64,000 nucleotides of DNA, taken from the NCBI RefSeq assembly GCF_964194155.1, contig NC_135896.1:8184001-8248000 (forward strand), in the 5' to 3' direction. The translations under genes and the position numbers were made by a program. Origin of the DNA: Cetorhinus maximus. Lineage: Eukaryota. The notes under the pieces were generated by a model, which saw only the letters and a list, made by a program, of their open reading frames with translations, did no database searches and was not told the origin of the DNA. Positions 9,133 to 62,375 of this stretch are shown here, one piece after another (positions within the stretch are counted from its first letter, which is position 1; the number at the start of each line of letters is the position of its first letter).

Positions 9133-9210
9133 CTGTGGGAGAACAAACTAATGCAGTCAAAAGCTGTCGATGGTTTCCACTCAGAGGAGCAACAGATTTT
9201 AATTCAGGCG

Positions 9211-9242
<32 letters not shown>

Positions 9243-9258
9243 GCAGCAGCAGCACCAC

Positions 9259-9289
<31 letters not shown>

Positions 9290-9349
9290 ATCAGCACCAG
9301 GCTCAGCAGCAACAGACACAACAAGTGCTCACCATCCCTGCTAATTCAG
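9133..9349 (+). CDS. GTF2A1: GTF2A1 exon 3 (Q/H-rich)
   Basis: cag|CTG...TCAG|gttagt, 217 nt, ends phase 1; LWENKLMQSKAVDGFHSEEQQILIQA followed by polyQ and QTQQVLTIPANS. Confidence 0.96.
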
Positions 9350-29562: not shown

Positions 29563-29830
29563 GCAAGAGAAACAGCAGGGCCATTTACAGCGAGAGAGTG
29601 TGAGAGAAACAGCAGGGCAATTTACAGCGAGAGAGAGAGTGAGAGAGAAACAGCGTGGTTGTTTACAGTGAGAGAGAAACAGTGTGGTCATTTACAAGGA
29701 GAGAGAGAGAAACAGCGGGGCCATTTACAGCGCGAGTGAGAGAGAGAAACAGTGTGGTCGTTTACAGCGAGAGAGAAACAGCGGGGTCATTTACAGGGAG
29801 AGGGTGAGAGAGGAATGGGGCATTTAACAG
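29563..29830 (+). repeat. about 7 imperfect 30-40 bp monomers (GAGAGAAACAGCGGGGCCATTTACAGCGA), probable CR1 5'UTR
   Basis: Read directly; lies upstream of the ORF1 start at 30109. Confidence 0.75.
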
Positions 29831-30912
29831 TGAGAGAAGAGTGTGAAACTACTAAAGAGCGTGAGAGGGAAAAGAGCGCGGAGAGCAACTGATTGGTGAG
29901 TAGGATTAGTGAGTAGTTCAAGCCTTTAAAGTAAAAATAAGGTCTTTAGTTTGTGTTTAGATCTCTAGTCTTTTTTTCTCTTTTTCTTAAAGATAGCTTC
30001 TTAAGTATAAGATTGATACTGGTGTGTATAAAAAAAAAATTATAGTAAACTGTAAAGAGTGGGGATACTAGAGTAATTAATTAATAAATTTAATAAAATA
30101 CAATAGCGATGGCAGGACGGGTGATGTGTTGCTGCTGCAGCATGTGGGAGCTGCTGGACACCAAGGCGATCCAGAGCGAACACATCGTACCAAGTGTTTG
30201 CAGCTCGAGGAACTTTGGATCCAAGTTAAGAACGTACAAGTTCAACAGATAATAGGGAAGGCAAATGGAATGTTGGCCTTTATTTCAAAGGGAATGGAGT
30301 ATATAGATAGGGAAGTCTTGTTAAAATTATACAAGGCACTAGTTAGACCACACCTAGAATACTGTGAACAATTTTGGTCCCCTTATCTAAGGAAAGATAT
30401 ACTGGCATTGGAGGCAGTCCAGAGAAGGTTCACTAGGTTGATCCCAGGTATGGAGGGATTTTCTTATGAGGAGAGGTTGAGTAGGTTGGGCCTGTACTCA
30501 TTGGAGTTTAGAGGAATGAGAGGCAACCTTATTGAAACAAATAAGATTCTTAGGGGGCTTGACTGGGTAGATGTTGAGAGGTTGTTTCGCCTTGTAGGAG
30601 AGTCTAGGACCAGAGGGCATAATCTCAGTGTAAGGGGTCGCCCATTTAAAACAGAGAGGAGGAGGAGTTTCTTCTCTGAGGGTAGTCAGTTTGTGGAGTT
30701 CTTTACCACAGTGGGCTGTAGAGGCTGGGTCGCTAAGTATATTCAAGGCTGAGATAGACAGATTTTTAATCAGTAAAGGAATCGAGGGGTATGGGGAAAA
30801 GGCAGGAAAGTGGAGTTGAGGATTATCAGATCAGCCATGATCTCGTTGAATGGCGGAGCAGACTTGATGGGCCAAATGGCCTCCTCCGTCTTATGGTCTC
30901 ATGGGCCTTATG
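29563..30912 (+). mobile_element. internally deleted CR1: 5'UTR and ORF1 zinc finger joined to RT C-terminus and 3' tail
   Basis: ATG 30109 MAGRVMCCCCSMWELL...HI-(frameshift)-TKCLQLEELWIQV, then at ~30228 directly VQVQQIIGKANGMLAFISKG...RPHLEYC. Confidence 0.8.
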
Positions 30913-33902: not shown

Positions 33903-34010
33903 ATCCACCGGAGTAAGAATAAGTGGAAGTTCCACCTGAAGGATGGGATCATGAACCTGAATGGGAGAGATTATGTGTTTTCCAAAGCCATTGGAGATGC
34001 AGAGTGGTAA
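33903..34010 (+). CDS. GTF2A1: GTF2A1 last coding exon (TFIIA-beta barrel)
   Basis: tttag|ATC...TGG TAA, 108 nt; IHRSKNKWKFHLKDGIMNLNGRDYVFSKAIGDAEW*. Confidence 0.98.
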   Translation: MHRSKNKWKFHLKDGIMNLNGRDYVFSKAIGDAEW

Positions 34011-52893: not shown

Positions 52894-54980
52894 TGTTAAT
52901 GGTAAGTTAATTATACTGTTAACATTGTTATGAATACATATCTCCAAGAACTATATGTATTTTAAAATTGGAAGGACATTGAATTATTTGGACACTTCTT
53001 TGAGAACTGACCTGGGTATTTTTAAAAGGTTATAAGTTCACTTTGCGCTGTGAGCAAACTGCCTTTTCCAATAAGTCACATGACTTCAGCTAAAGGAACA
53101 AGCAAGGCACCCTTTTTTTTATTCATTTTCAGGATTGGGGCATCGCTCTCAAGGCCAACATTTATTGCCCATCCCTCATTGCCCTTGAGAAGGTGGTGGT
53201 GAGCTGCCTTCCTGAACCCTGACAGTCCATGTGGTGTAGGTACACCCACAGTGCTGTTAAGGAGGGAGTTCCAGGATTTTGACCCAGCGACAGTGAAGGA
53301 ACAGCGATATATTTCCAAGTCAGGATGGTGATTGGCTTGGAACGGAACTTCCAGGTGGTGATGTTACCATGTATCTGCTGCCCTTGTCCTTCTAGATGAT
53401 GATGGTCATGGGTTTGGTAGGTGCTGCCTAAGGAGCCTTGGTGGGTTTCTGAGTTGCATCTTGCAGATGGTATACACTGCTGTTACTGTGCATCGGCGGT
53501 GGAGGGAGTGAATGTTTGTGGTAGGGGTGCCAATCAAGCGAACTGCTTTGTCCTGGATGATGTCCAGCTTTTTGAGTGTTTTTGGAGCTGTACTCATCCA
53601 GGCAAGCGGGGAGTATTCCATCACACTTCTGACTTGTGCCTTGTAGATGGTGGACAGACTTTGGGGATTCAGGAGGTGAGTTACTCATTGCACGATTCCC
53701 AGCCTCTGACCTGCTCTTGTAGCCACAGAATTTATGTGGCTAGTTTAGTTCAATTCCTAGTCAATGGTAACCCCTAGGATGTTGATAATGGGGGATTCAG
53801 TGATGGTAATGTCATTGAATGTCAAGGGGCAATGGTTAGATTCTCTCTTGTTGGAAATGGTCATTGCCTGACACTTGTGTGGCATGAATGTCACTTGCCA
53901 GTTGTCAGCCCAAGCCTGGATATTGTCCAGGTCTTGCTGCATTTGGACATGAACTGCTTCAGTATCTGAGGAGTCGCGAATGGTGCTGAGGAGAAAAGAA
54001 CTATTTGTTTACTTGAACTTTAATTGTTGGAGAGAAAAAAACAACTGTTTTCAGGCTGTGAGGTCCTGGTGATTTTCTGGAAACCACTTGACTGAGAGCG
54101 GTTTCTGTTTTGTGTTTTGGACTCAGTTTTGGGACTCAACCGGAAAGGAGAAGATTGCCCAACTCGCTCTCTCCCTGCCTTGTCTGAACTTCAGTGTTGT
54201 TATCAGTATCCGGCTAGAAATTCTCCAGTCAGTATAACTTGGCTATATTTGGAAACCTGAGAAGCTGAGACGAGAGAGAGATCCGAAGGACATTGATTCT
54301 GCCCTGTTCTCCTCCACACTGGAAAGAACCTCCAGACAACTACTGTGACCAGCAATCCCTCTCTGTACACAGGAACACCAGATCGACAACATCAAAACCC
54401 TCCAAACTTTATCCTTTTTGATAAAGTTTTCCCATTGGCCAAAAGGTGCTTTTTCCCTCCTTAAATGTCAACCTCTGCAGACCTCTGTTTTGTCCTTTGT
54501 GTGTGTGTGTGTGTGTTGGGTTTAAAGGGGTATATAGTTACACTTCTGGATTACAAATTGTATGTTAACCAGTTTTTGCAACTTGCTTTTAAAAATAAGT
54601 TTTGTTTCATAATAAGTCAATCATTCTAAGTTTATTGAAAGAAGCCTGGTTAAAGTCTCTTTTATTATGGGTCTAACAACAGCAGAAGTAAGCTATTGGC
54701 CATTTTGGTGAGTGAATTAAACATTTACACTAATGGTGCGACATGTGGAGTAGTGGGGCTAGAGAAACTGCACACTCCTCCCATCCCGGTCATAACAACA
54801 TTCACACGTGAAGTGCATTGCTTAATTAAGTACTTAGAGCACTTATAAAGAGAGACTGCTGGGACACTGGGTTGGGAAGCAGACATCTGTAATGCTACGT
54901 TCTGTGAATAAACCCATTATCAACAAAAATACTCGTGTCTAGTTTCATACTTCACTAACTGGCTTGGTATCAGACTATCA
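52894..54980 (+). mobile_element. short solo LTR (~210 bp) split by a second LTR
   Basis: TGT...TCA termini; near-TSD GTCAT/GTAAT; TATAAA at ~54844 and AATAAA at ~54907; the rejoined halves align with the copy at 84-176. Confidence 0.7.
52926..54797 (+). mobile_element. solo LTR, itself interrupted by a LINE fragment (53120-53990, -)
   Basis: 8-bp inverted termini TGTTATGA...TCATAACA; 4-bp TSD ACAT at 52922-52925 and 54798-54801. Confidence 0.85.
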
Positions 54981-55688
54981 GTAATACTTAGCACAAAACA
55001 CCAAAGATCATGGGTCCAAATGTTGGTATTTCAAGTGTTTGGTAAATTCTGAGTGTTTTACATGTTAGGGTTTGTTAAAGCATGCACAGATGTGACAGGG
55101 AATGAGATAAGATCATTAAATCACTGACTATGCCTGCCACAAAGTTTTATTGATTTCTATAAAAGAGTTAAGACATCAGAAAGGTCTTACACCTTTCACA
55201 ACCACAGGATGTCCCAGTGCGCCCTACAGCCTTTCTGAAGTGTAGTCACTGTTGCAATGCAGGAAACACTGCTGCCAAATTTGCACACAGCAAGATCCCA
55301 CAAACAGCAATGACTGATTATGGCACACAATCTTGCTTAATGACTCTCTGCGCTCCATGTGAAACAGATTTGGGAACTGCCAAGCCATTTCTTTATAGGT
55401 CAGAGTACACAACACAATTGATTACTCGGCATTAATTGGGAATCTCGTATGGTGATACCACAAGGACATGTGGCATGGGAAATAGGTGAAAGAACACATC
55501 CTGATGCACCTCTCAACTTATAATAAAGACCATTAGTGAGTTGGGAATGCTTGACATTGTCCCTGGGTGGCAGAAGTAGATTTTCCTAACATTTCACAAG
55601 ATCACAGGATGATTAGAGGTGAGGAAATCTGTTCGGCCAATCTGAATTCATCAATCCAGAATGGTTTTACACTTGCCGTGTGGCAGGG

Positions 55689-58600
55689 GAGTACTCTAGC
55701 TGAGAAGCGCTGAGAGTGCTGAGTACTCTAGCTGAGAAGCGCTGAGAGTGCTGAGTACTCTAGCTGGGAAGTGCTGAGAGTGCCCAGTACTCTAGCTGGG
55801 AAGGGCTGAGAGTGCCCAGTACTCTAGCTGGGAAGTGCTGAGAGTGCTGAGTACTCTAGCTGGGAAGCGCTGAGAGTGCCCAGTACTCTAGCTGGTAAGC
55901 GCTGAGAGTGCTGAGCACTCTAGCTGGGAAGCGCTGAGAGTGCTGAGTATTCTAGCTGGGAAGCGCTGAGAGTGCTGAGTACCCTAGCTGGGAAGCGCTG
56001 AGAGTGCCCAGTACTCTAGCTGGGAAGCGCTGAGAGTGCTGAGTACTCTAGCTGGGAAGCGCTGAGAGTGCTGAGTACTCTAGCTGGGAACTGCTGAGAG
56101 TGCCCAGTACTCTAGCTGGGAAGCGCTGAGAGTGCTGAGTACTCTAGCTGGGAAGCGCAGAGAGTGCCCAGTACTCTAGCTGGGAAGCGCAGAGAGTGCC
56201 CAGTACTCTAGCTGGGAAGCGCTGAGAGTGCCCAGTACTCTAGCTGGGAAGCGCAGAGAGTGCTGAGTACTCTAGCTGGGAAGCGCTGAGAGTGCCCAGT
56301 ATTCTAGCTGGGAAGCGCTGAGAGTGCTGAGTACTCTAGCTGGGAAGCGCTGAGAGTGCCCAGTACTCTAGCTGGGAAGCGCTGAGAGTGCCCAGTACTC
56401 TAGCTGGTAAGCGCTGAGAGTGCCCAGTACTCTAGCTGGGAAGGGCTGAGAGTGCCCAGTACTCTAGCTGGGAAGCGCTGAGAGTGCTGAGTACTCTAGC
56501 TGGGAAGCGCTGAGAGTGCCCGGTACTCTAGCTGGGAAGCGCTGAGAGTGCCCAGTACTCTAGCTGGGAAGGGCTGAGAGTGCCCAGTACTCTAGCTGGG
56601 AAGCGCTGAGAGTGCTGAGTACTCTAGCTGGGAAGCGCTGAGAGTGCCCAGTACTCTAGCTGGGAAGCGCTGAGAGTGCCCAGCACTCTAGCTGGGAAGG
56701 GCTGAGAGTGCCCAGTACTCTAGCTGGGAAGCGCTGAGAGTGCCCAGTACTCTAGCTGGGAAGCGCTGAGAGTGCCCAGTACTCTAGCTGGGAAGCGCTG
56801 AGAGTGCTGAGTACTCTAGCTGGGAAGCGCTGAGAGTGCTGAGTACTCTAGCTGGGAAGCGCTGAGAGTGCCCAGTACTCTAGCTGGGAAGCGCTGAGAG
56901 TGCTGAGTACTCTAGCTGGGAAGCGCTGAGAGTGCTGAGTACTCTAGCTGGGAAGCGCAGAGAGTGCCCAGTACTCTAGCTGGGAAGCGCTGAGAGTGCT
57001 GAGTACTCTAGCTGGGAAGCGCTGAGAGTGCCCAGTACTCTAGCTGGGAAGCGCTGAGAGTGCTGAGTACTCTAGCTGGGAAGCGCTGAGAGTGCCCAGT
57101 ACTCTAGCTGGGAAGCGCTGAGAGTGCTGAGTACTCTAGCTGGGAAGCACTGAGAGTGCCCAGTACTCTAGCTGGGAAGCGCTGAGAGTGCTGAGTACTC
57201 TAGCTGGGAAGCGCTGAGAGTGCCCAGTACTCTAGCTGGGAAGCGCAGAGAGTGCCCAGTACTCTAGCTGGGAAGCGCTGAGAGTGCTGAGTACTCTAGC
57301 TGGGAAGCGCAGAGAGTGCCCAGTACTCTAGCTGGGAAGCGCTGAGAGTGCTGAGTATTCTAGCTGGGAAGTGCTGAGAGTGCCCAGTACTCTAGCTGGG
57401 AAGCGCTGAGAGTGCCCAGTACTCTAGCTGGGAAGCGCTGAGAGTGCCCAGTACTCTAGCTGGGAAGCGCTGAGAGTGCCCAGTACTCTAGCTGGGAAGC
57501 GCTGAGAGTGCCCAGTACTCTAGCTGGGAAGCGCTGAGAGTGCCCAGTACTCTAGCTGGGAAGCGCTGAGAGTGCTGAGTACTCTAGCTGGGAAGCGCTG
57601 AGAGTGCTGAGTACTCTAGCTGGGAAGCGCAGAGAGTGCCCAGTACTCTAGCTGGGAAGCGCTGAGTGCGCCCAGTACTCTAGCTGGGAAGCGCTGAGAG
57701 TGCTGAGTACTCTAGCTGGGAAGCGCTGAGAGTGCTGAGTACTCTAGCTGGGAAGCGCTGAGAGTGCTGAGTACTCTAGCTGGGAAGCGCTGAGAGTGCT
57801 GAGTACTCTAGCTGGGAAGCGCTGAGAGTGCCCAGTACTCTAGCTGGGAAGCGCTGAGAGTGCCCAGTACTCTAGCTGGGAAGCGCTGAGAGTGCCCAGT
57901 ACTCTAGCTGGGAAGCGCTGAGAGTGCTGAGTACTCTAGCTGGGAAGCGCTGAGAGTGCCCAGTACTCTAGCTGGGAAGCGCTGAGAGTGCTGAGTACTC
58001 TAGCTGGGAAGCGCTGAGAGTGCCCAGTACTCTAGCTGGGAAGCGCAGAGAGTGCCCAGTACTCTAGCTGGGAAGCGCTGAGAGTGCTGAGTACTCTAGC
58101 TGGGAAGCGCAGAGAGTGCCCAGTACTCTAGCTGGGAAGCGCTGAGAGTGCTGAGTATTCTAGCTGGGAAGTGCTGAGAGTGCCCAGTACTCTAGCTGGG
58201 AAGCGCTGAGAGTGCCCAGTACTCTAGCTGGGAAGCGCTGAGAGTGCCCAGTACTCTAGCTGGGAAGCGCTGAGAGTGCCCAGTACTCTAGCTGGGAAGC
58301 GCTGAGAGTGCCCAGTACTCTAGCTGGGAAGCGCTGAGAGTGCCCAGTACTCTAGCTGGGAAGCGCTGAGAGTGCTGAGTACTCTAGCTGGGAAGCGCTG
58401 AGAGTGCTGAGTACTCTAGCTGGGAAGCGCAGAGAGTGCCCAGTACTCTAGCTGGGAAGCGCTGAGAGTGCCCAGTACTCTAGCTGGGAAGCGCTGAGAG
58501 TGCTGAGTACTCTAGCTGGGAAGCGCTGAGAGTGCTGAGTACTCTAGCTGGGAAGCGCTGAGAGTGCTGAGTACTCTAGCTGGGAAGTGCTGAAAGTGCC

Positions 58601-61564
58601 CAGTACTCTAGCTGGGAAGCGCTGAGAGTGCCCAGTACTCTAGCTGGGAAGCGCTGAGAGTGCCCAGTACTCTAGCTGGGAAGCGCTGAGAGTGCCCAGT
58701 ACTCTAGCTGGGAAGCGCTGAGAGTGCTGAGTACTCTAGCTGGGAAGCGCTGAGAGTGCCCGGTACTCTAGCTGGGAAGCGCTGAGAGTGCCCAGTACTC
58801 TAGCTGGGAAGGGCTGAGAGTGCCCAGTACTCTAGCTGGGAAGCGCTGAGAGTGCCCAGTACTCTAGCTGGGAAGCGCTGAGAGTGCTGAGTACTCTAGC
58901 TGGGAAGCGCTGAGAGTGCCCAGTACTCTAGCTAGGAAGCGCTGAGAGTGCCCAGTACTCTAGCTGGGAAGCGCTGAGAGTGCTGAGTACTCTAGCTGGG
59001 AAGCGCAGAGAGTGCCCAGTACTCTAGCTGGGAAGCGCTGAGAGTGCCCAGTACTCTAGCTGGGAAGGGCTGAGAGTGCTGAGTACTCTAGCTGGGAAGC
59101 GCTGAGAGTGCTGAGTACTCTAGCTGGGAAGCGCTGAGAGTGCCCAGTACTCTAGCTGGGAAGCGCTGAGAGTGCTGAGTACTCTAGCTGGGAAGCGCTG
59201 AGAGTGCTGAGTACTCTAGCTGGGAAGCGCAGAGAGTGCCCAGTACTCTAGCTGGGAAGCGCTGAGAGTGCTGAGTACTCTAGCTGGGAAGCGCTGAGAG
59301 TGCTGAGTACTCTAGCTGGGAAGCGCAGAGAGTGCCCAGTACTCTAGCTGGGAAGCGCTGAGAGTGCTGAGTATTCTAGCTGGGAAGTGCTGAGAGTGCC
59401 CAGTACTCTAGCTGGGAAGCGCTGAGAGTGCCCAGTACTCTAGCTGGGAAGCGCTGAGAGTGCTGAGTATTCTAGCTGGGAAGCGCTGAGAGTGCTGAGT
59501 ACTCTAGCTGGGAAGCGCAGAGAGTGCCCAGTACTCTAGCTGGGAAGCGCTGAGAGTGCCCAGTACTCTAGCTGGGAAGCGCTGAGAGTGCTGAGTACTC
59601 TAGCTGGGAAGCGCTGAGAGTGCCCAGTACTCTAGCTGGGAAGCGCTGAGAGTGCCCAGTACTCTAGCTGAGAAGCGCTGAGAGTGCCCAGTACTCTAGC
59701 TGGGAAGCGCTGAGAGTGCTGAGTATTCTAGCTGGGAAGCGCTGAGAGTGCCCAGTACTCTAGCTGGGAAGCGCTGAGAGTGCTGAGTACTCTAGCTGGG
59801 AAGCGCTGAGAGTGCCCAGTACTCTAGCTGGGAAGCGCTGAGAGTGCCCAGTACTCTAGCTGGGAAGCGATGAGAGTGCTGAGTACTCTAGCTGGGAAGC
59901 GCTGAGAGTGCTGAGTACTCTAGTTGGGAAGCGCTGAGAGTGCTGAGTACTCTAGCTGGGAAGCGCAGAGAGTGCTGAGTACTCTAGCTGGGATGCGCTG
60001 AGAGTGCTGAGTACTCTAGCTGGGAAGCGCTGAGAGTGCTGAGTACTCTAGCTGGGAAGCGCTGAGAGTGCCCAGTACTCTAGCTGGGAAGCGCTGAGAG
60101 TGCTGAGTACTCTAGCTGGGAAGCGCTGAGAGTGCTGAGTACTCTAGCTGGGAAGCGCTGAGAGTGCCCAGTACTCTAGCTGGGAAGGGCTGAGAGTGCT
60201 GAGTACTCTAGCTGGGAAGCGCTGAGAGTGCTGAGTACTCTAGCTGGGAAGCGCTGAGAGTGCCCAGTACTCTAGCTGGGAAGCGCTGAGAGTGCTGAGT
60301 ACTCTAGCTGGGAAGCGCTGAGAGTGCTGAGTACTCTAGCTGGGAAGCGCAGAGAGTGCCCAGTACTCTAGCTGGGAAGCGCTGAGAGTGCTGAGTACTC
60401 TAGCTGGGAAGCGCTGAGAGTGCTGAGTACTCTAGCTGGGAAGCGCAGAGAGTGCCCAGTACTCTAGCTGGGAAGCGCTGAGAGTGCTGAGTATTCTAGC
60501 TGGGAAGTGCTGAGAGTGCCCAGTACTCTAGCTGGGAAGCGCTGAGAGTGCTGAGTACTCTAGCTGGGAAGCGCTGAGAGTGCTGAGTACTCTAGCTGGG
60601 AAGCGCTGAAAGTGCCCAGTACTCTAGCTGGGAAGCGCAGAGAGTGCCCAGTACTCTAGCTGGGAAGCGCTGAGAGTGCTGAGTACTCTAGCTGGGAAGC
60701 GCTGAGAGTGCCCAGTACTCTAGCTGGGAAGCGCTGAGAGTGCTGAGTACTCTAGCTGGGAAGCGCTGAGAGTGCCCGGTACTCTAGCTGGGAAGCGCTG
60801 AGAGTGCCCAGTACTCTAGCTGGGAAGGGCTGAGAGTGCCCAGTACTCTAGCTGGGAAGCGCTGAGAGTGCTGAGTACTCTAGCTGGGAAGCGCTGAGAG
60901 TGCTGAGTACTCTAGCTGGGAAGCGCTGAGAGTGCCCAGTACTCTAGCTGGGAAGCGCTGAGAGTGCTGAGTACTCTAGCTGGGAAGCGCTGAGAGTGCT
61001 GAGTACTCTAGCTGGGAAGCGCAGAGAGTGCCCAGTACTCTAGCTGGGAAGCGCTGAGAGTGCCCAGTACTCTAGCTGGGAAGCGCTGAGAGTGCCCAGT
61101 ACTCTAGCTGGGAAGCGCTGAGAGTGCCCAGTACTCTAGCTGGGAAGCGCTGAGAGTGCCCAGTACTCTAGCTGGGAAGCGCTGAGAGTGCCCAGTACTC
61201 TAGCTGGGAAGCGCTGAGAGTGCTGAGTACTCTAGCTGGGAAGCGCTGAGAGTGCCCAGTACTCTAGCTGGGAAGCGCTGAGAGTGCCCAGTACTCTAGC
61301 TGGGAAGTGCTGAGAGTGCCCAGTACTCTAGCTGGGAAGTGCTGAGAGTGCCCAGTACTCTAGCTGGGAAGCGCTGAGAGTGCCCAGTACTCTAGCTGGG
61401 AAGCGCTGAGAGTGCCCAGTACTCTAGCTGGGAAGCGCTGAGAGTGCCCAGTACTCTAGCTGGGAAGCGCTGAGAGTGCCAGTACTGTAGCTGGGAAGCG
61501 CTGAGAGTGCTGAGTACTCTAGCTGGGAAGCGCTGAGAGTGCCCAGTAGTCTAGCTGGGAAGCG
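55689..61564. repeat. 32-bp tandem array (minisatellite/satellite), about 183 copies
   Basis: Unit AGTACTCTAGCTGGGAAGCGCTGAGAGTGC[TG|CC]; 5876 bp / 32. Confidence 0.99.
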
Positions 61565-61974
61565 AGACTTTATGTAGTGGTAGGCATCTTGCCTCCGTGT
61601 TAGAAGGTGATGAGTTCAGGCCCCACTCTAGACAGCTCCTGTGAACAGAGACTAGAACATGATGTTTATATGTGGAGTCCTTATGTCCAGATGGGGTAGT
61701 ATGGCTCTTTGCTACATTGTGTTCAATGATTGATATCTTCCTTGCTTATTGGTGAACAGACTAGGACAAAATACTCAAGGCATGGTCTGACCAGGGCTCT
61801 GTGTAGTTTGGACAGGAAGTCCTCTGTCCTCTACTGCTCTCTCTCTATAGTTCAACGTTCCATTAGCTTTGTTGATTGACACGCTGCAGTGGTTGAATAC
61901 ATTGAGGTGGAAATAGCAATTTGCCACTAGTGCAAAATGGGATCATAGTAAATCTGCAGCCCATTATAGAAAGA

Positions 61975-62375
61975 AAGACTTGCATTTATTAGCCTCTTAC
62001 TTGCCCTCAGGTCATGTCAAAATTGGCTTTACAGCCAATGAAGTACATTTATTTGAAGTGTAGTCGCTGTTGTAATGTAGGAAACGTAATGGGTAATTTG
62101 CGCACAGCAAGATCCCACAAACAGCAATGTGATAAATTACTGGGTGACCAGTTTTAATGATGGTGACTGAGGGATAGAGGTTGGCCAGGGTACCTGGGAG
62201 AATTCATTTGCTGTTCTTCTAAATTATGACCGTGGGTTCATTAGCATACTTGGTTCAAAATGTCTCATCTGAAAAAGGGCACCTCCTACAATGCAGCGCT
62301 CCCTCAGTACTGCATTGGGAGAGCCAGCCTAGATGATGTGCTCAGGCCTTTGGAGTGGACCTTCCACCAACGACA
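61975..62375 (-). mobile_element. Deu-domain-type SINE
   Basis: Aligns by eye with 41125-41545. Confidence 0.72.

What the first reader, a model, noticed from the sequence alone, without database searches (positions are those of the whole stretch)
55689..61564. 5.9-kb array of a 32-bp unit with an irregular two-state (TG/CC) pattern
Seen: about 183 copies of almost constant length (one 1-nt deletion near 61480). The main variation is a linked dinucleotide switch, GTGC-TG-AGTACT versus GTGC-CC-AGTACT, with no intermediate TC or CG forms noticed. Rarer variants include GCGCAG, AAGGGC, GTATTC and CCGG. Most units retain their CpG (AGCGCT) although the flanks are CpG-poor, which suggests recent expansion or ongoing homogenisation. 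Each unit carries TGGGAA (RBPJ/Ikaros-like core). CTAG puts stops on both strands, so the array is non-coding. It lies ~20 kb downstream of GTF2A1 amid decayed LINE/SINE sequence.
Basis: seen in the sequence. Interest (0 to 1): 0.7.

Follow-up and report, generated by a model that had tools for sequence, protein, structure and literature searches.

The report
Ordinary minisatellite between GTF2A1 and TSHR
A 32-letter DNA unit is repeated about 184 times at one spot between the ends of two genes, in two main spellings mixed at random; this is the familiar layout of a minisatellite, similar-sized arrays occur elsewhere in this genome, and it most likely has no function.

Summary
The array is real: 55690-61564, 183.6 copies of 32 bp; 104 CC and 78 TG units, no TC/CG. 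It is single-locus: 179 of 180 genome-wide motif matches lie in it. It sits between the convergent 3' ends of GTF2A1 (stop 21.7 kb away) and TSHR (stop 7.4 kb away). TG/CC order is statistically random (runs z 1.19), but the unit map holds imperfect block duplications of 25 and 35 units' offset, a degenerate left edge and linkage that breaks down over 9-12 bp: the standard picture of an interspersed-variant minisatellite. Contigs from another species label run from an orthologous flank (7% diverged) into the unit, so the seed is older than this lineage. Four other arrays of 1 kb or more, one over 9.6 kb, turned up in 720 kb sampled. No coding frame, RNA family, unusual fold, repeat-element source or full RBPJ site was found. 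Allele-length variation and methylation are untested. Verdict: new member of a known kind; low interest.

The parts
55690..61564 (.). Minisatellite, 183.6 x 32 bp; two major unit types differing at one dinucleotide (CC 104, TG 78)
55690..56105 (.). Degenerate left edge: 10 of the first 13 units differ from the 30-bp core, against 48 of the next 167
56874..58761 (.). Imperfect block duplication, period 25 units (800 bp): 34 units from 56874 match 34 units from 57674 at 29 places, with an exact run of 15 units
   Evidence: diagonal score 27.0 against a maximum of 11.1 in 300 shuffles
59018..59401 (.). First copy of an exactly repeated 12-unit block (second copy 60138-60521, offset 35 units)
   Evidence: score 19.8, reached by 0 of 300 shuffles
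60138..60521 (.). Second copy of the 12-unit block
61450..61564 (.). Right edge: the 31-bp unit, two single-copy variants and the partial last unit; run X1 holds 61519-61960 with no difference
33903..34010 (+). Context: last coding exon and stop of GTF2A1 (TFIIA alpha/beta family PF03153)

Best explanation
This is a single-locus, GC-rich minisatellite of 184 x 32 bp in the intergenic DNA between the 3' ends of GTF2A1 and TSHR, and it is likely a functionless product of repeat turnover. Shown: anatomy, single locus, random TG/CC order, block duplications, partial linkage of minor variants, degenerate left edge, presence of the unit at the same place in another species label. Inferred: the TG and CC forms arose once, early, when the array was short (one double substitution, or two changes in one unit lineage); both were then amplified and intermingled by unequal exchange, slippage and gene conversion; because the two bases are adjacent they are almost never separated, whereas variants 9-12 bp away sometimes are; turnover replaces units faster than CpG decay can erode them.
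For: 179 of 180 genome-wide matches to a 20-mer (1 mismatch) lie in the array; 153 of 155 exact 16-mer matches do, with 1.9 expected by chance. Runs test on TG/CC: 98 runs, 90.1 expected, z 1.19; only lag 25 stands out. Two block repeats beat all 300 shuffles and the longer one is imperfect. T22A is linked to CC (17 of 19, Fisher p 0.003) but not fully; C19G 6 of 8, C19T 9 of 10. The CpG is the most varied site by kind (C>T 10 units, C>G 8, G>A 1). Run X13 (organism C) has a flank contig with 30 differences in 426 bases that runs to 55719, through the first unit's core, and a 62-base CC-form unit contig at depth 55 against 11 for the flank; run X5 (organism B) has 10 contigs 95-99% alike on the stretch with summed depth up to 4195 on the units against about 44 on a flank contig. 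In 72 stretches of 10 kb from this genome TRF found 4 other arrays of 1 kb or more (period 10-100), one of at least 9.6 kb. PMC2599865 (introduction read) and PMC2674676 (passages) describe 9-100 bp units, intermingled variants at autosomal loci and block duplications.
Against: Length variation between alleles, the defining property of a VNTR, was not measured. A crude uniform-breakpoint model expects 1.7-4.3 TC/CG units (chance of none 0.013-0.18; units are not independent), so the absence of intermediates is mildly more than the simplest model gives. None of five other sampled arrays showed a comparable clean adjacent two-base switch; the sixth gave a signal that is a register effect of mixed unit lengths. 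The seed persists, with an apparently unchanged core, across about 7% flank divergence (about 2 changes expected in 32 bp, so not significant). Run X15 (organism C, 48% of the run read) laid no contig on the units and X1 laid none inside the array; the tool warns that holes prove nothing. Absence of function was not tested.
Confidence: 0.85

Rival explanations
1. The array is a length-variable regulatory element (enhancer, silencer or insulator) for TSHR or GTF2A1, working through multiplied factor sites such as TGGGAA.
For: 7.4 kb from the TSHR stop, between convergent genes; TGGGAA in 177 of 184 units; unit present in three species labels. Regulatory VNTRs such as the insulin VNTR are known (recalled).
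Against: GTGGGAA, the longer RBPJ form (recalled; term co-occurs with RBPJ in 66 papers, search listing only), occurs 0 times; TGGGAA is common background, 0.88 per kb; the array lies 3' of both genes; apparent copy number differs widely between species labels (depth ratios of roughly 5 and 95, rough); the TG/CC order carries no period.
Confidence: 0.07
2. The TG/CC switch is made repeatedly by local template copying: TG completes a 6-base direct repeat of the unit's own sequence 9 bases upstream, CC completes a 5-base inverted repeat, so the two states interconvert in one step.
For: TG has a 6-base direct template and CC a 5-base inverted template inside the unit; 16 and 39 of 288 possible double substitutions reach those lengths. 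No intermediates in 182 units. The first two units carry a G>A change that yields the same direct-repeat word.
Against: The test is after the fact; AG at the same site would have an 8-base inverted template and is never seen; folding of 3-unit stretches is no more stable than shuffled units (39% and 9% of 300 shuffles as stable); strong linkage of T22A to CC argues against frequent switching. As a one-time origin it fits inside the best explanation.
Confidence: 0.05
3. The 5.9-kb length is partly an assembly expansion of a shorter array.
For: No read or contig spanning the array was seen; X1 contigs covered only the right junction; a 25-unit block is duplicated.
Against: No N in the window; the duplicated 34-unit block differs at 5 units and 20 unit types are singletons spread along the array; X1 agrees with the assembly over 61519-61960 including the terminal variant, though X1 may be the source sample.
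Confidence: 0.03

Closest known systems
Human autosomal hypervariable minisatellites mapped by MVR-PCR (MS32/D1S8, MS31A, insulin VNTR)
   Same: Single locus, GC-rich unit of 9-100 bp, kilobase array, base-substitution variants interspersed along the array, block duplications (PMC2599865 introduction; PMC2674676 and PMC3510502 passages). MS32's 29-bp unit and two-state typing are recalled, not read.
   Different: No shared sequence claimed; the major variant here is a linked two-base change; mutation rate, allele diversity and a flanking recombination hotspot are untested; the locus is 8.2 Mb from the end of a 102-Mb contig rather than subterminal.
MSY1 (DYF155S1), human Y minisatellite
   Same: Constant unit length with substitution variants (25 bp there; PMC2599865).
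   Different: MSY1 is 75% A+T, haploid, its variants sit in blocks and its unit is predicted to form a hairpin; here the array is about 58% G+C, variants are intermingled, and folding is no better than shuffles.
Satellite DNA (centromeric or subtelomeric, multi-locus)
   Same: Head-to-tail homogenised units.
   Different: One locus of 5.9 kb in a 4-Gb assembly.

Membership tests
Minisatellite / VNTR with interspersed variant repeats | Tandem unit of about 9-100 bp, array of kilobase size | tested here: met
   32 bp x 183.6, 5875 bp
Minisatellite / VNTR with interspersed variant repeats | Single locus with non-repetitive junctions | tested here: met
   179 of 180 motif matches in the array; flanks match elsewhere only as short 68-82% pieces
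Minisatellite / VNTR with interspersed variant repeats | Sequence variants intermingled along the array, with signs of block duplication or conversion | tested here: met
   runs z 1.19; block repeats above all 300 shuffles; partial linkage
Minisatellite / VNTR with interspersed variant repeats | Allele length and map vary among individuals | not testable with these tools
   Only collapsed contigs were laid; depth differences between species labels are a rough hint
Hypervariable (MS32-type) minisatellite | High germline mutation rate by inter-allelic conversion next to a recombination hotspot | not testable with these tools
   Needs sperm or pedigree typing
Multi-locus satellite DNA | Many copies at several loci or megabase blocks | tested here: not met
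   (assembly only; unassembled arrays cannot be excluded)
Clustered RBPJ/CSL response element | Full GTGGGAA site (motif recalled) | tested here: not met
   0 occurrences in the array; binding itself not testable
Transposon-derived minisatellite | Unit matches an interspersed repeat family | tested here: inconclusive
   Best blastn hits in about 780 kb (72 stretches plus the window outside the array) were 22.6 and 25.4 bits against a 95th percentile of 26.8 for 100 shuffled units; the sample is 0.02% of the genome
Coding tandem repeat or structured RNA array | Open frame through the array, or a match to an RNA family | tested here: not met
   Stops in all six frames; no Rfam match at E up to 1 in 54500-56500

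The most novel reading that the evidence does not exclude
A minisatellite kept at the TSHR 3' end across several shark-like species, whose units flip between two dinucleotide states in one step by copying from templates inside the unit, and whose length or TG/CC make-up tunes TSHR expression.
Probability: 0.04. Interest if true: 0.5.

Novelty: new member of a known kind. Interest (0 to 1): 0.12.

Why it matters
As found, it matters little: it would make a good digital (MVR-style) marker for individual identification or population work in this group of animals, and a tractable locus for watching minisatellite turnover in a slowly evolving vertebrate lineage, since the seed is shared between species labels. 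Only if array length affected TSHR expression, or the two-base switch were shown to be templated and recurrent, would it say something new.

Tried and rejected
Other loci of the unit: none beyond chance (the C10 hit is an isolated 16-mer). Periodic or higher-order code in TG/CC: none except the lag-25 duplication. Coding potential: rejected. Rfam: no match in 54500-56500. Special hairpin: not above shuffled units. SINE or other repeat as source of the unit: a resemblance I recalled was not above shuffles. RBPJ reading: rejected on motif grounds. RNA: no RNA holder listed, which is no evidence on expression. Runs X1 and X15 laid no contig inside the array and X5 none over 55356-55595; these holes are uninformative. 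The TG form was not seen in other species labels; contigs drop alternative paths, so the ancestral state stays open. Literature: searches for TSHR + GTF2A1 + VNTR (1 paper, on human thyroid autoimmunity, listing only), shark genome + minisatellite terms and elasmobranch + VNTR/minisatellite/satellite listed nothing on this locus; only listings were seen for these, apart from passages of PMC10620051. A search on multinucleotide mutation and template switching was seen as a listing only. Earlier scan notes by sequence: none.

Full report
Observation. The sequence and TRF show one array at 55690-61564: period 32, 183.6 copies, 94% matches, 0% indels. It is the only long array among the 19 TRF rows of the window. 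Parsing gave 184 units of 31 types; two types that differ only at the last two bases make up 123 of them. Of 182 full-length units 104 end in CC and 78 in TG; none in TC or CG. One unit (61450-61480) is 31 bp. All six frames are closed (longest 31 aa on +, 52 aa on -). G+C is about 58% against about 41% around it.

CpG. The CpG is kept in 165 of 184 units, but there is only one per unit: observed/expected 0.37, against 0.28 left, 0.39 right and 0.25 for the window without the array. It is also the site with most kinds of change (C>T in 10 units, C>G in 8, G>A in 1). I infer a methylated CpG that decays and is replaced by turnover; methylation was not measured.

Internal structure. TG/CC order does not depart from random (98 runs, 90.1 expected, z 1.19), and no lag below 60 other than 25 exceeds 0.6 agreement. 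The full unit map is not random: 34 units from 56874 match 34 units from 57674 at 29 places, and a 12-unit block recurs exactly at 59018 and 60138; weighted scores 27.0 and 19.8 against a maximum of 11.1 in 300 shuffles. On exact runs alone the signal is weaker (longest 15 against a null maximum of 13 in 500 shuffles). Minor variants are linked to CC but not fully: T22A 17 of 19 (p 0.003), C19G 6 of 8, C19T 9 of 10. The left edge is degenerate (10 of 13 units off the core, against 48 of the next 167). These are the expected marks of unequal exchange and conversion: PMC2599865 (abstract, introduction and part of methods read) describes 9-100 bp units and highly interspersed variants at autosomal loci; PMC2674676 (passages) describes intermingled variants and block duplications; PMC3510502 (passages) describes MVR mapping of MS32.

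Why no intermediates. Two adjacent bases are seldom parted by an exchange. Scaling the breakdown seen at 9-12 bp to 1 bp predicts 1.7-4.3 TC/CG units; the chance of none is 0.013-0.18 under a crude model that treats units as independent. So the absence is at most a mild excess, and exchange points need matching sequence on both sides (established knowledge), which lowers the expectation further. A one-step origin is plausible: TG completes a 6-base direct repeat 9 bases upstream and CC a 5-base inverted repeat, lengths reached by 16 and 39 of 288 possible double substitutions; but AG would have a longer template and is absent, and the test is after the fact. Three-unit stretches fold no better than shuffled units repeated three times.

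Genome context. The window is G000:C19:8184001-8248000 in a 3.99-Gb assembly; C19 is 102 Mb. PF03153 places GTF2A1 exons on +, the last at 33903-34010. A 480-aa frame on the - strand at C19:8252922-8254361 matches thyrotropin receptor best (2e-196; LHCGR 5e-157, FSHR 1e-153). The array therefore lies between convergent 3' ends, 21.7 kb from the GTF2A1 stop and 7.4 kb from the TSHR stop. Three of six frames scanned carry LINE-type endonuclease or reverse-transcriptase domains, and parts of the left flank are highly multi-copy in all four runs laid. The label 'shark' comes from earlier scan notes and my recall of a SINE tail; I did not test it.

Copy number in the genome. An exact 16-mer has 155 matches, 153 in the array, 1.9 expected by chance (the C10 hit is isolated). 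A 20-mer with one mismatch has 180, 179 in the array. It is a single-locus array in this assembly.

Other species labels. Of 24 runs listed, 20 hold part of 55000-57000; five were laid. X1 (organism A, possibly the source sample) has a contig identical over 61519-61960 that begins 30 bases before the terminal variant, as expected where reads enter a repeat. X13 (organism C) has a 432-base contig over 55294-55719 with 30 differences, ending at the end of the first unit's core, and a 62-base contig that I read as core-CC-core at depth 55 against 11; X9 (organism C) has a flank contig ending at 55692. X5 (organism B) has 10 contigs 95-99% alike on the stretch, with summed depth up to 4195 over the units against about 44 for a flank contig, but no contig joins flank and unit, so the same locus is not shown. 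X15 (organism C) laid nothing on the units. Summed depth is not a copy number, but the seed clearly predates the A/C split and appears expanded to different degrees.

Baseline. TRF on 72 stretches of 10 kb (20 upstream, 12 downstream, 20 interior, 20 near contig ends) found four other arrays of 1 kb or more with period 10-100: 1160 bp (28-mer, 13 kb downstream), 1790 bp (30-mer), 1325 bp (27-mer, low complexity) and at least 9613 bp (39-mer). Arrays of this size are therefore a recurring feature here; this one is more homogeneous (94% against 72-89%). PMC10620051 (passages) reports simple tandem repeats varying with chromosome size and ends in sharks but nothing on this locus in the passages seen.

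Function. No Rfam match, no frame, no repeat-element source above shuffles. TGGGAA is in 177 units but the longer GTGGGAA never, and TGGGAA occurs 0.88 times per kb outside the array. A regulatory role for TSHR is not excluded, only unsupported.

Verdict. A real, single-locus minisatellite with interspersed variant units; works like the human MVR loci; membership as a polymorphic VNTR awaits allele data. New member of a known kind, interest 0.12.

Noticed in passing
L024:497-1656 (G000:C19:8258497-8259656): A second minisatellite, 28 bp x 41.8, 89% matches, about 4 kb upstream (in gene direction) of the TSHR last exon, so probably intronic; it leaves long Pro/Ser/Thr-rich open frames on the + strand.
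   Followed up: partly
L087:388-10000 (G000:C3:3000388-3010000): A 39-bp array of at least 248 copies and 9.6 kb, running off the stretch, 96 distinct unit types among 211.
   Followed up: partly
L085:7018-7876 (G000:C1:3007018-3007876): A 33-bp x 26 minisatellite whose unit resembles the interspersed repeat at window 62290-62330, so probably SINE-derived (resemblance by eye).
   Followed up: no
L085:5726-6446: An array of 18-20 bp units around a palindromic core, in mixed unit lengths.
   Followed up: partly
window 9210-9315: A CAG/CAA/CAT tract of about 35 triplets inside the GTF2A1 span that reads as poly-Gln with His in an open frame; probably a coding exon, a candidate polymorphic polyQ.
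   Followed up: no
G000:C14:91206866-91266475: A second TFIIA alpha/beta family gene, probably GTF2A1L.
   Followed up: no
window 61570-61640: Directly after the last unit lies a short multi-copy piece (82-87% alike to many contigs) that looks like a decayed tRNA-derived SINE head (recalled resemblance).
   Followed up: no
window 29566-29849: A decayed 29-41 bp tandem repeat in the last GTF2A1 intron.
   Followed up: no
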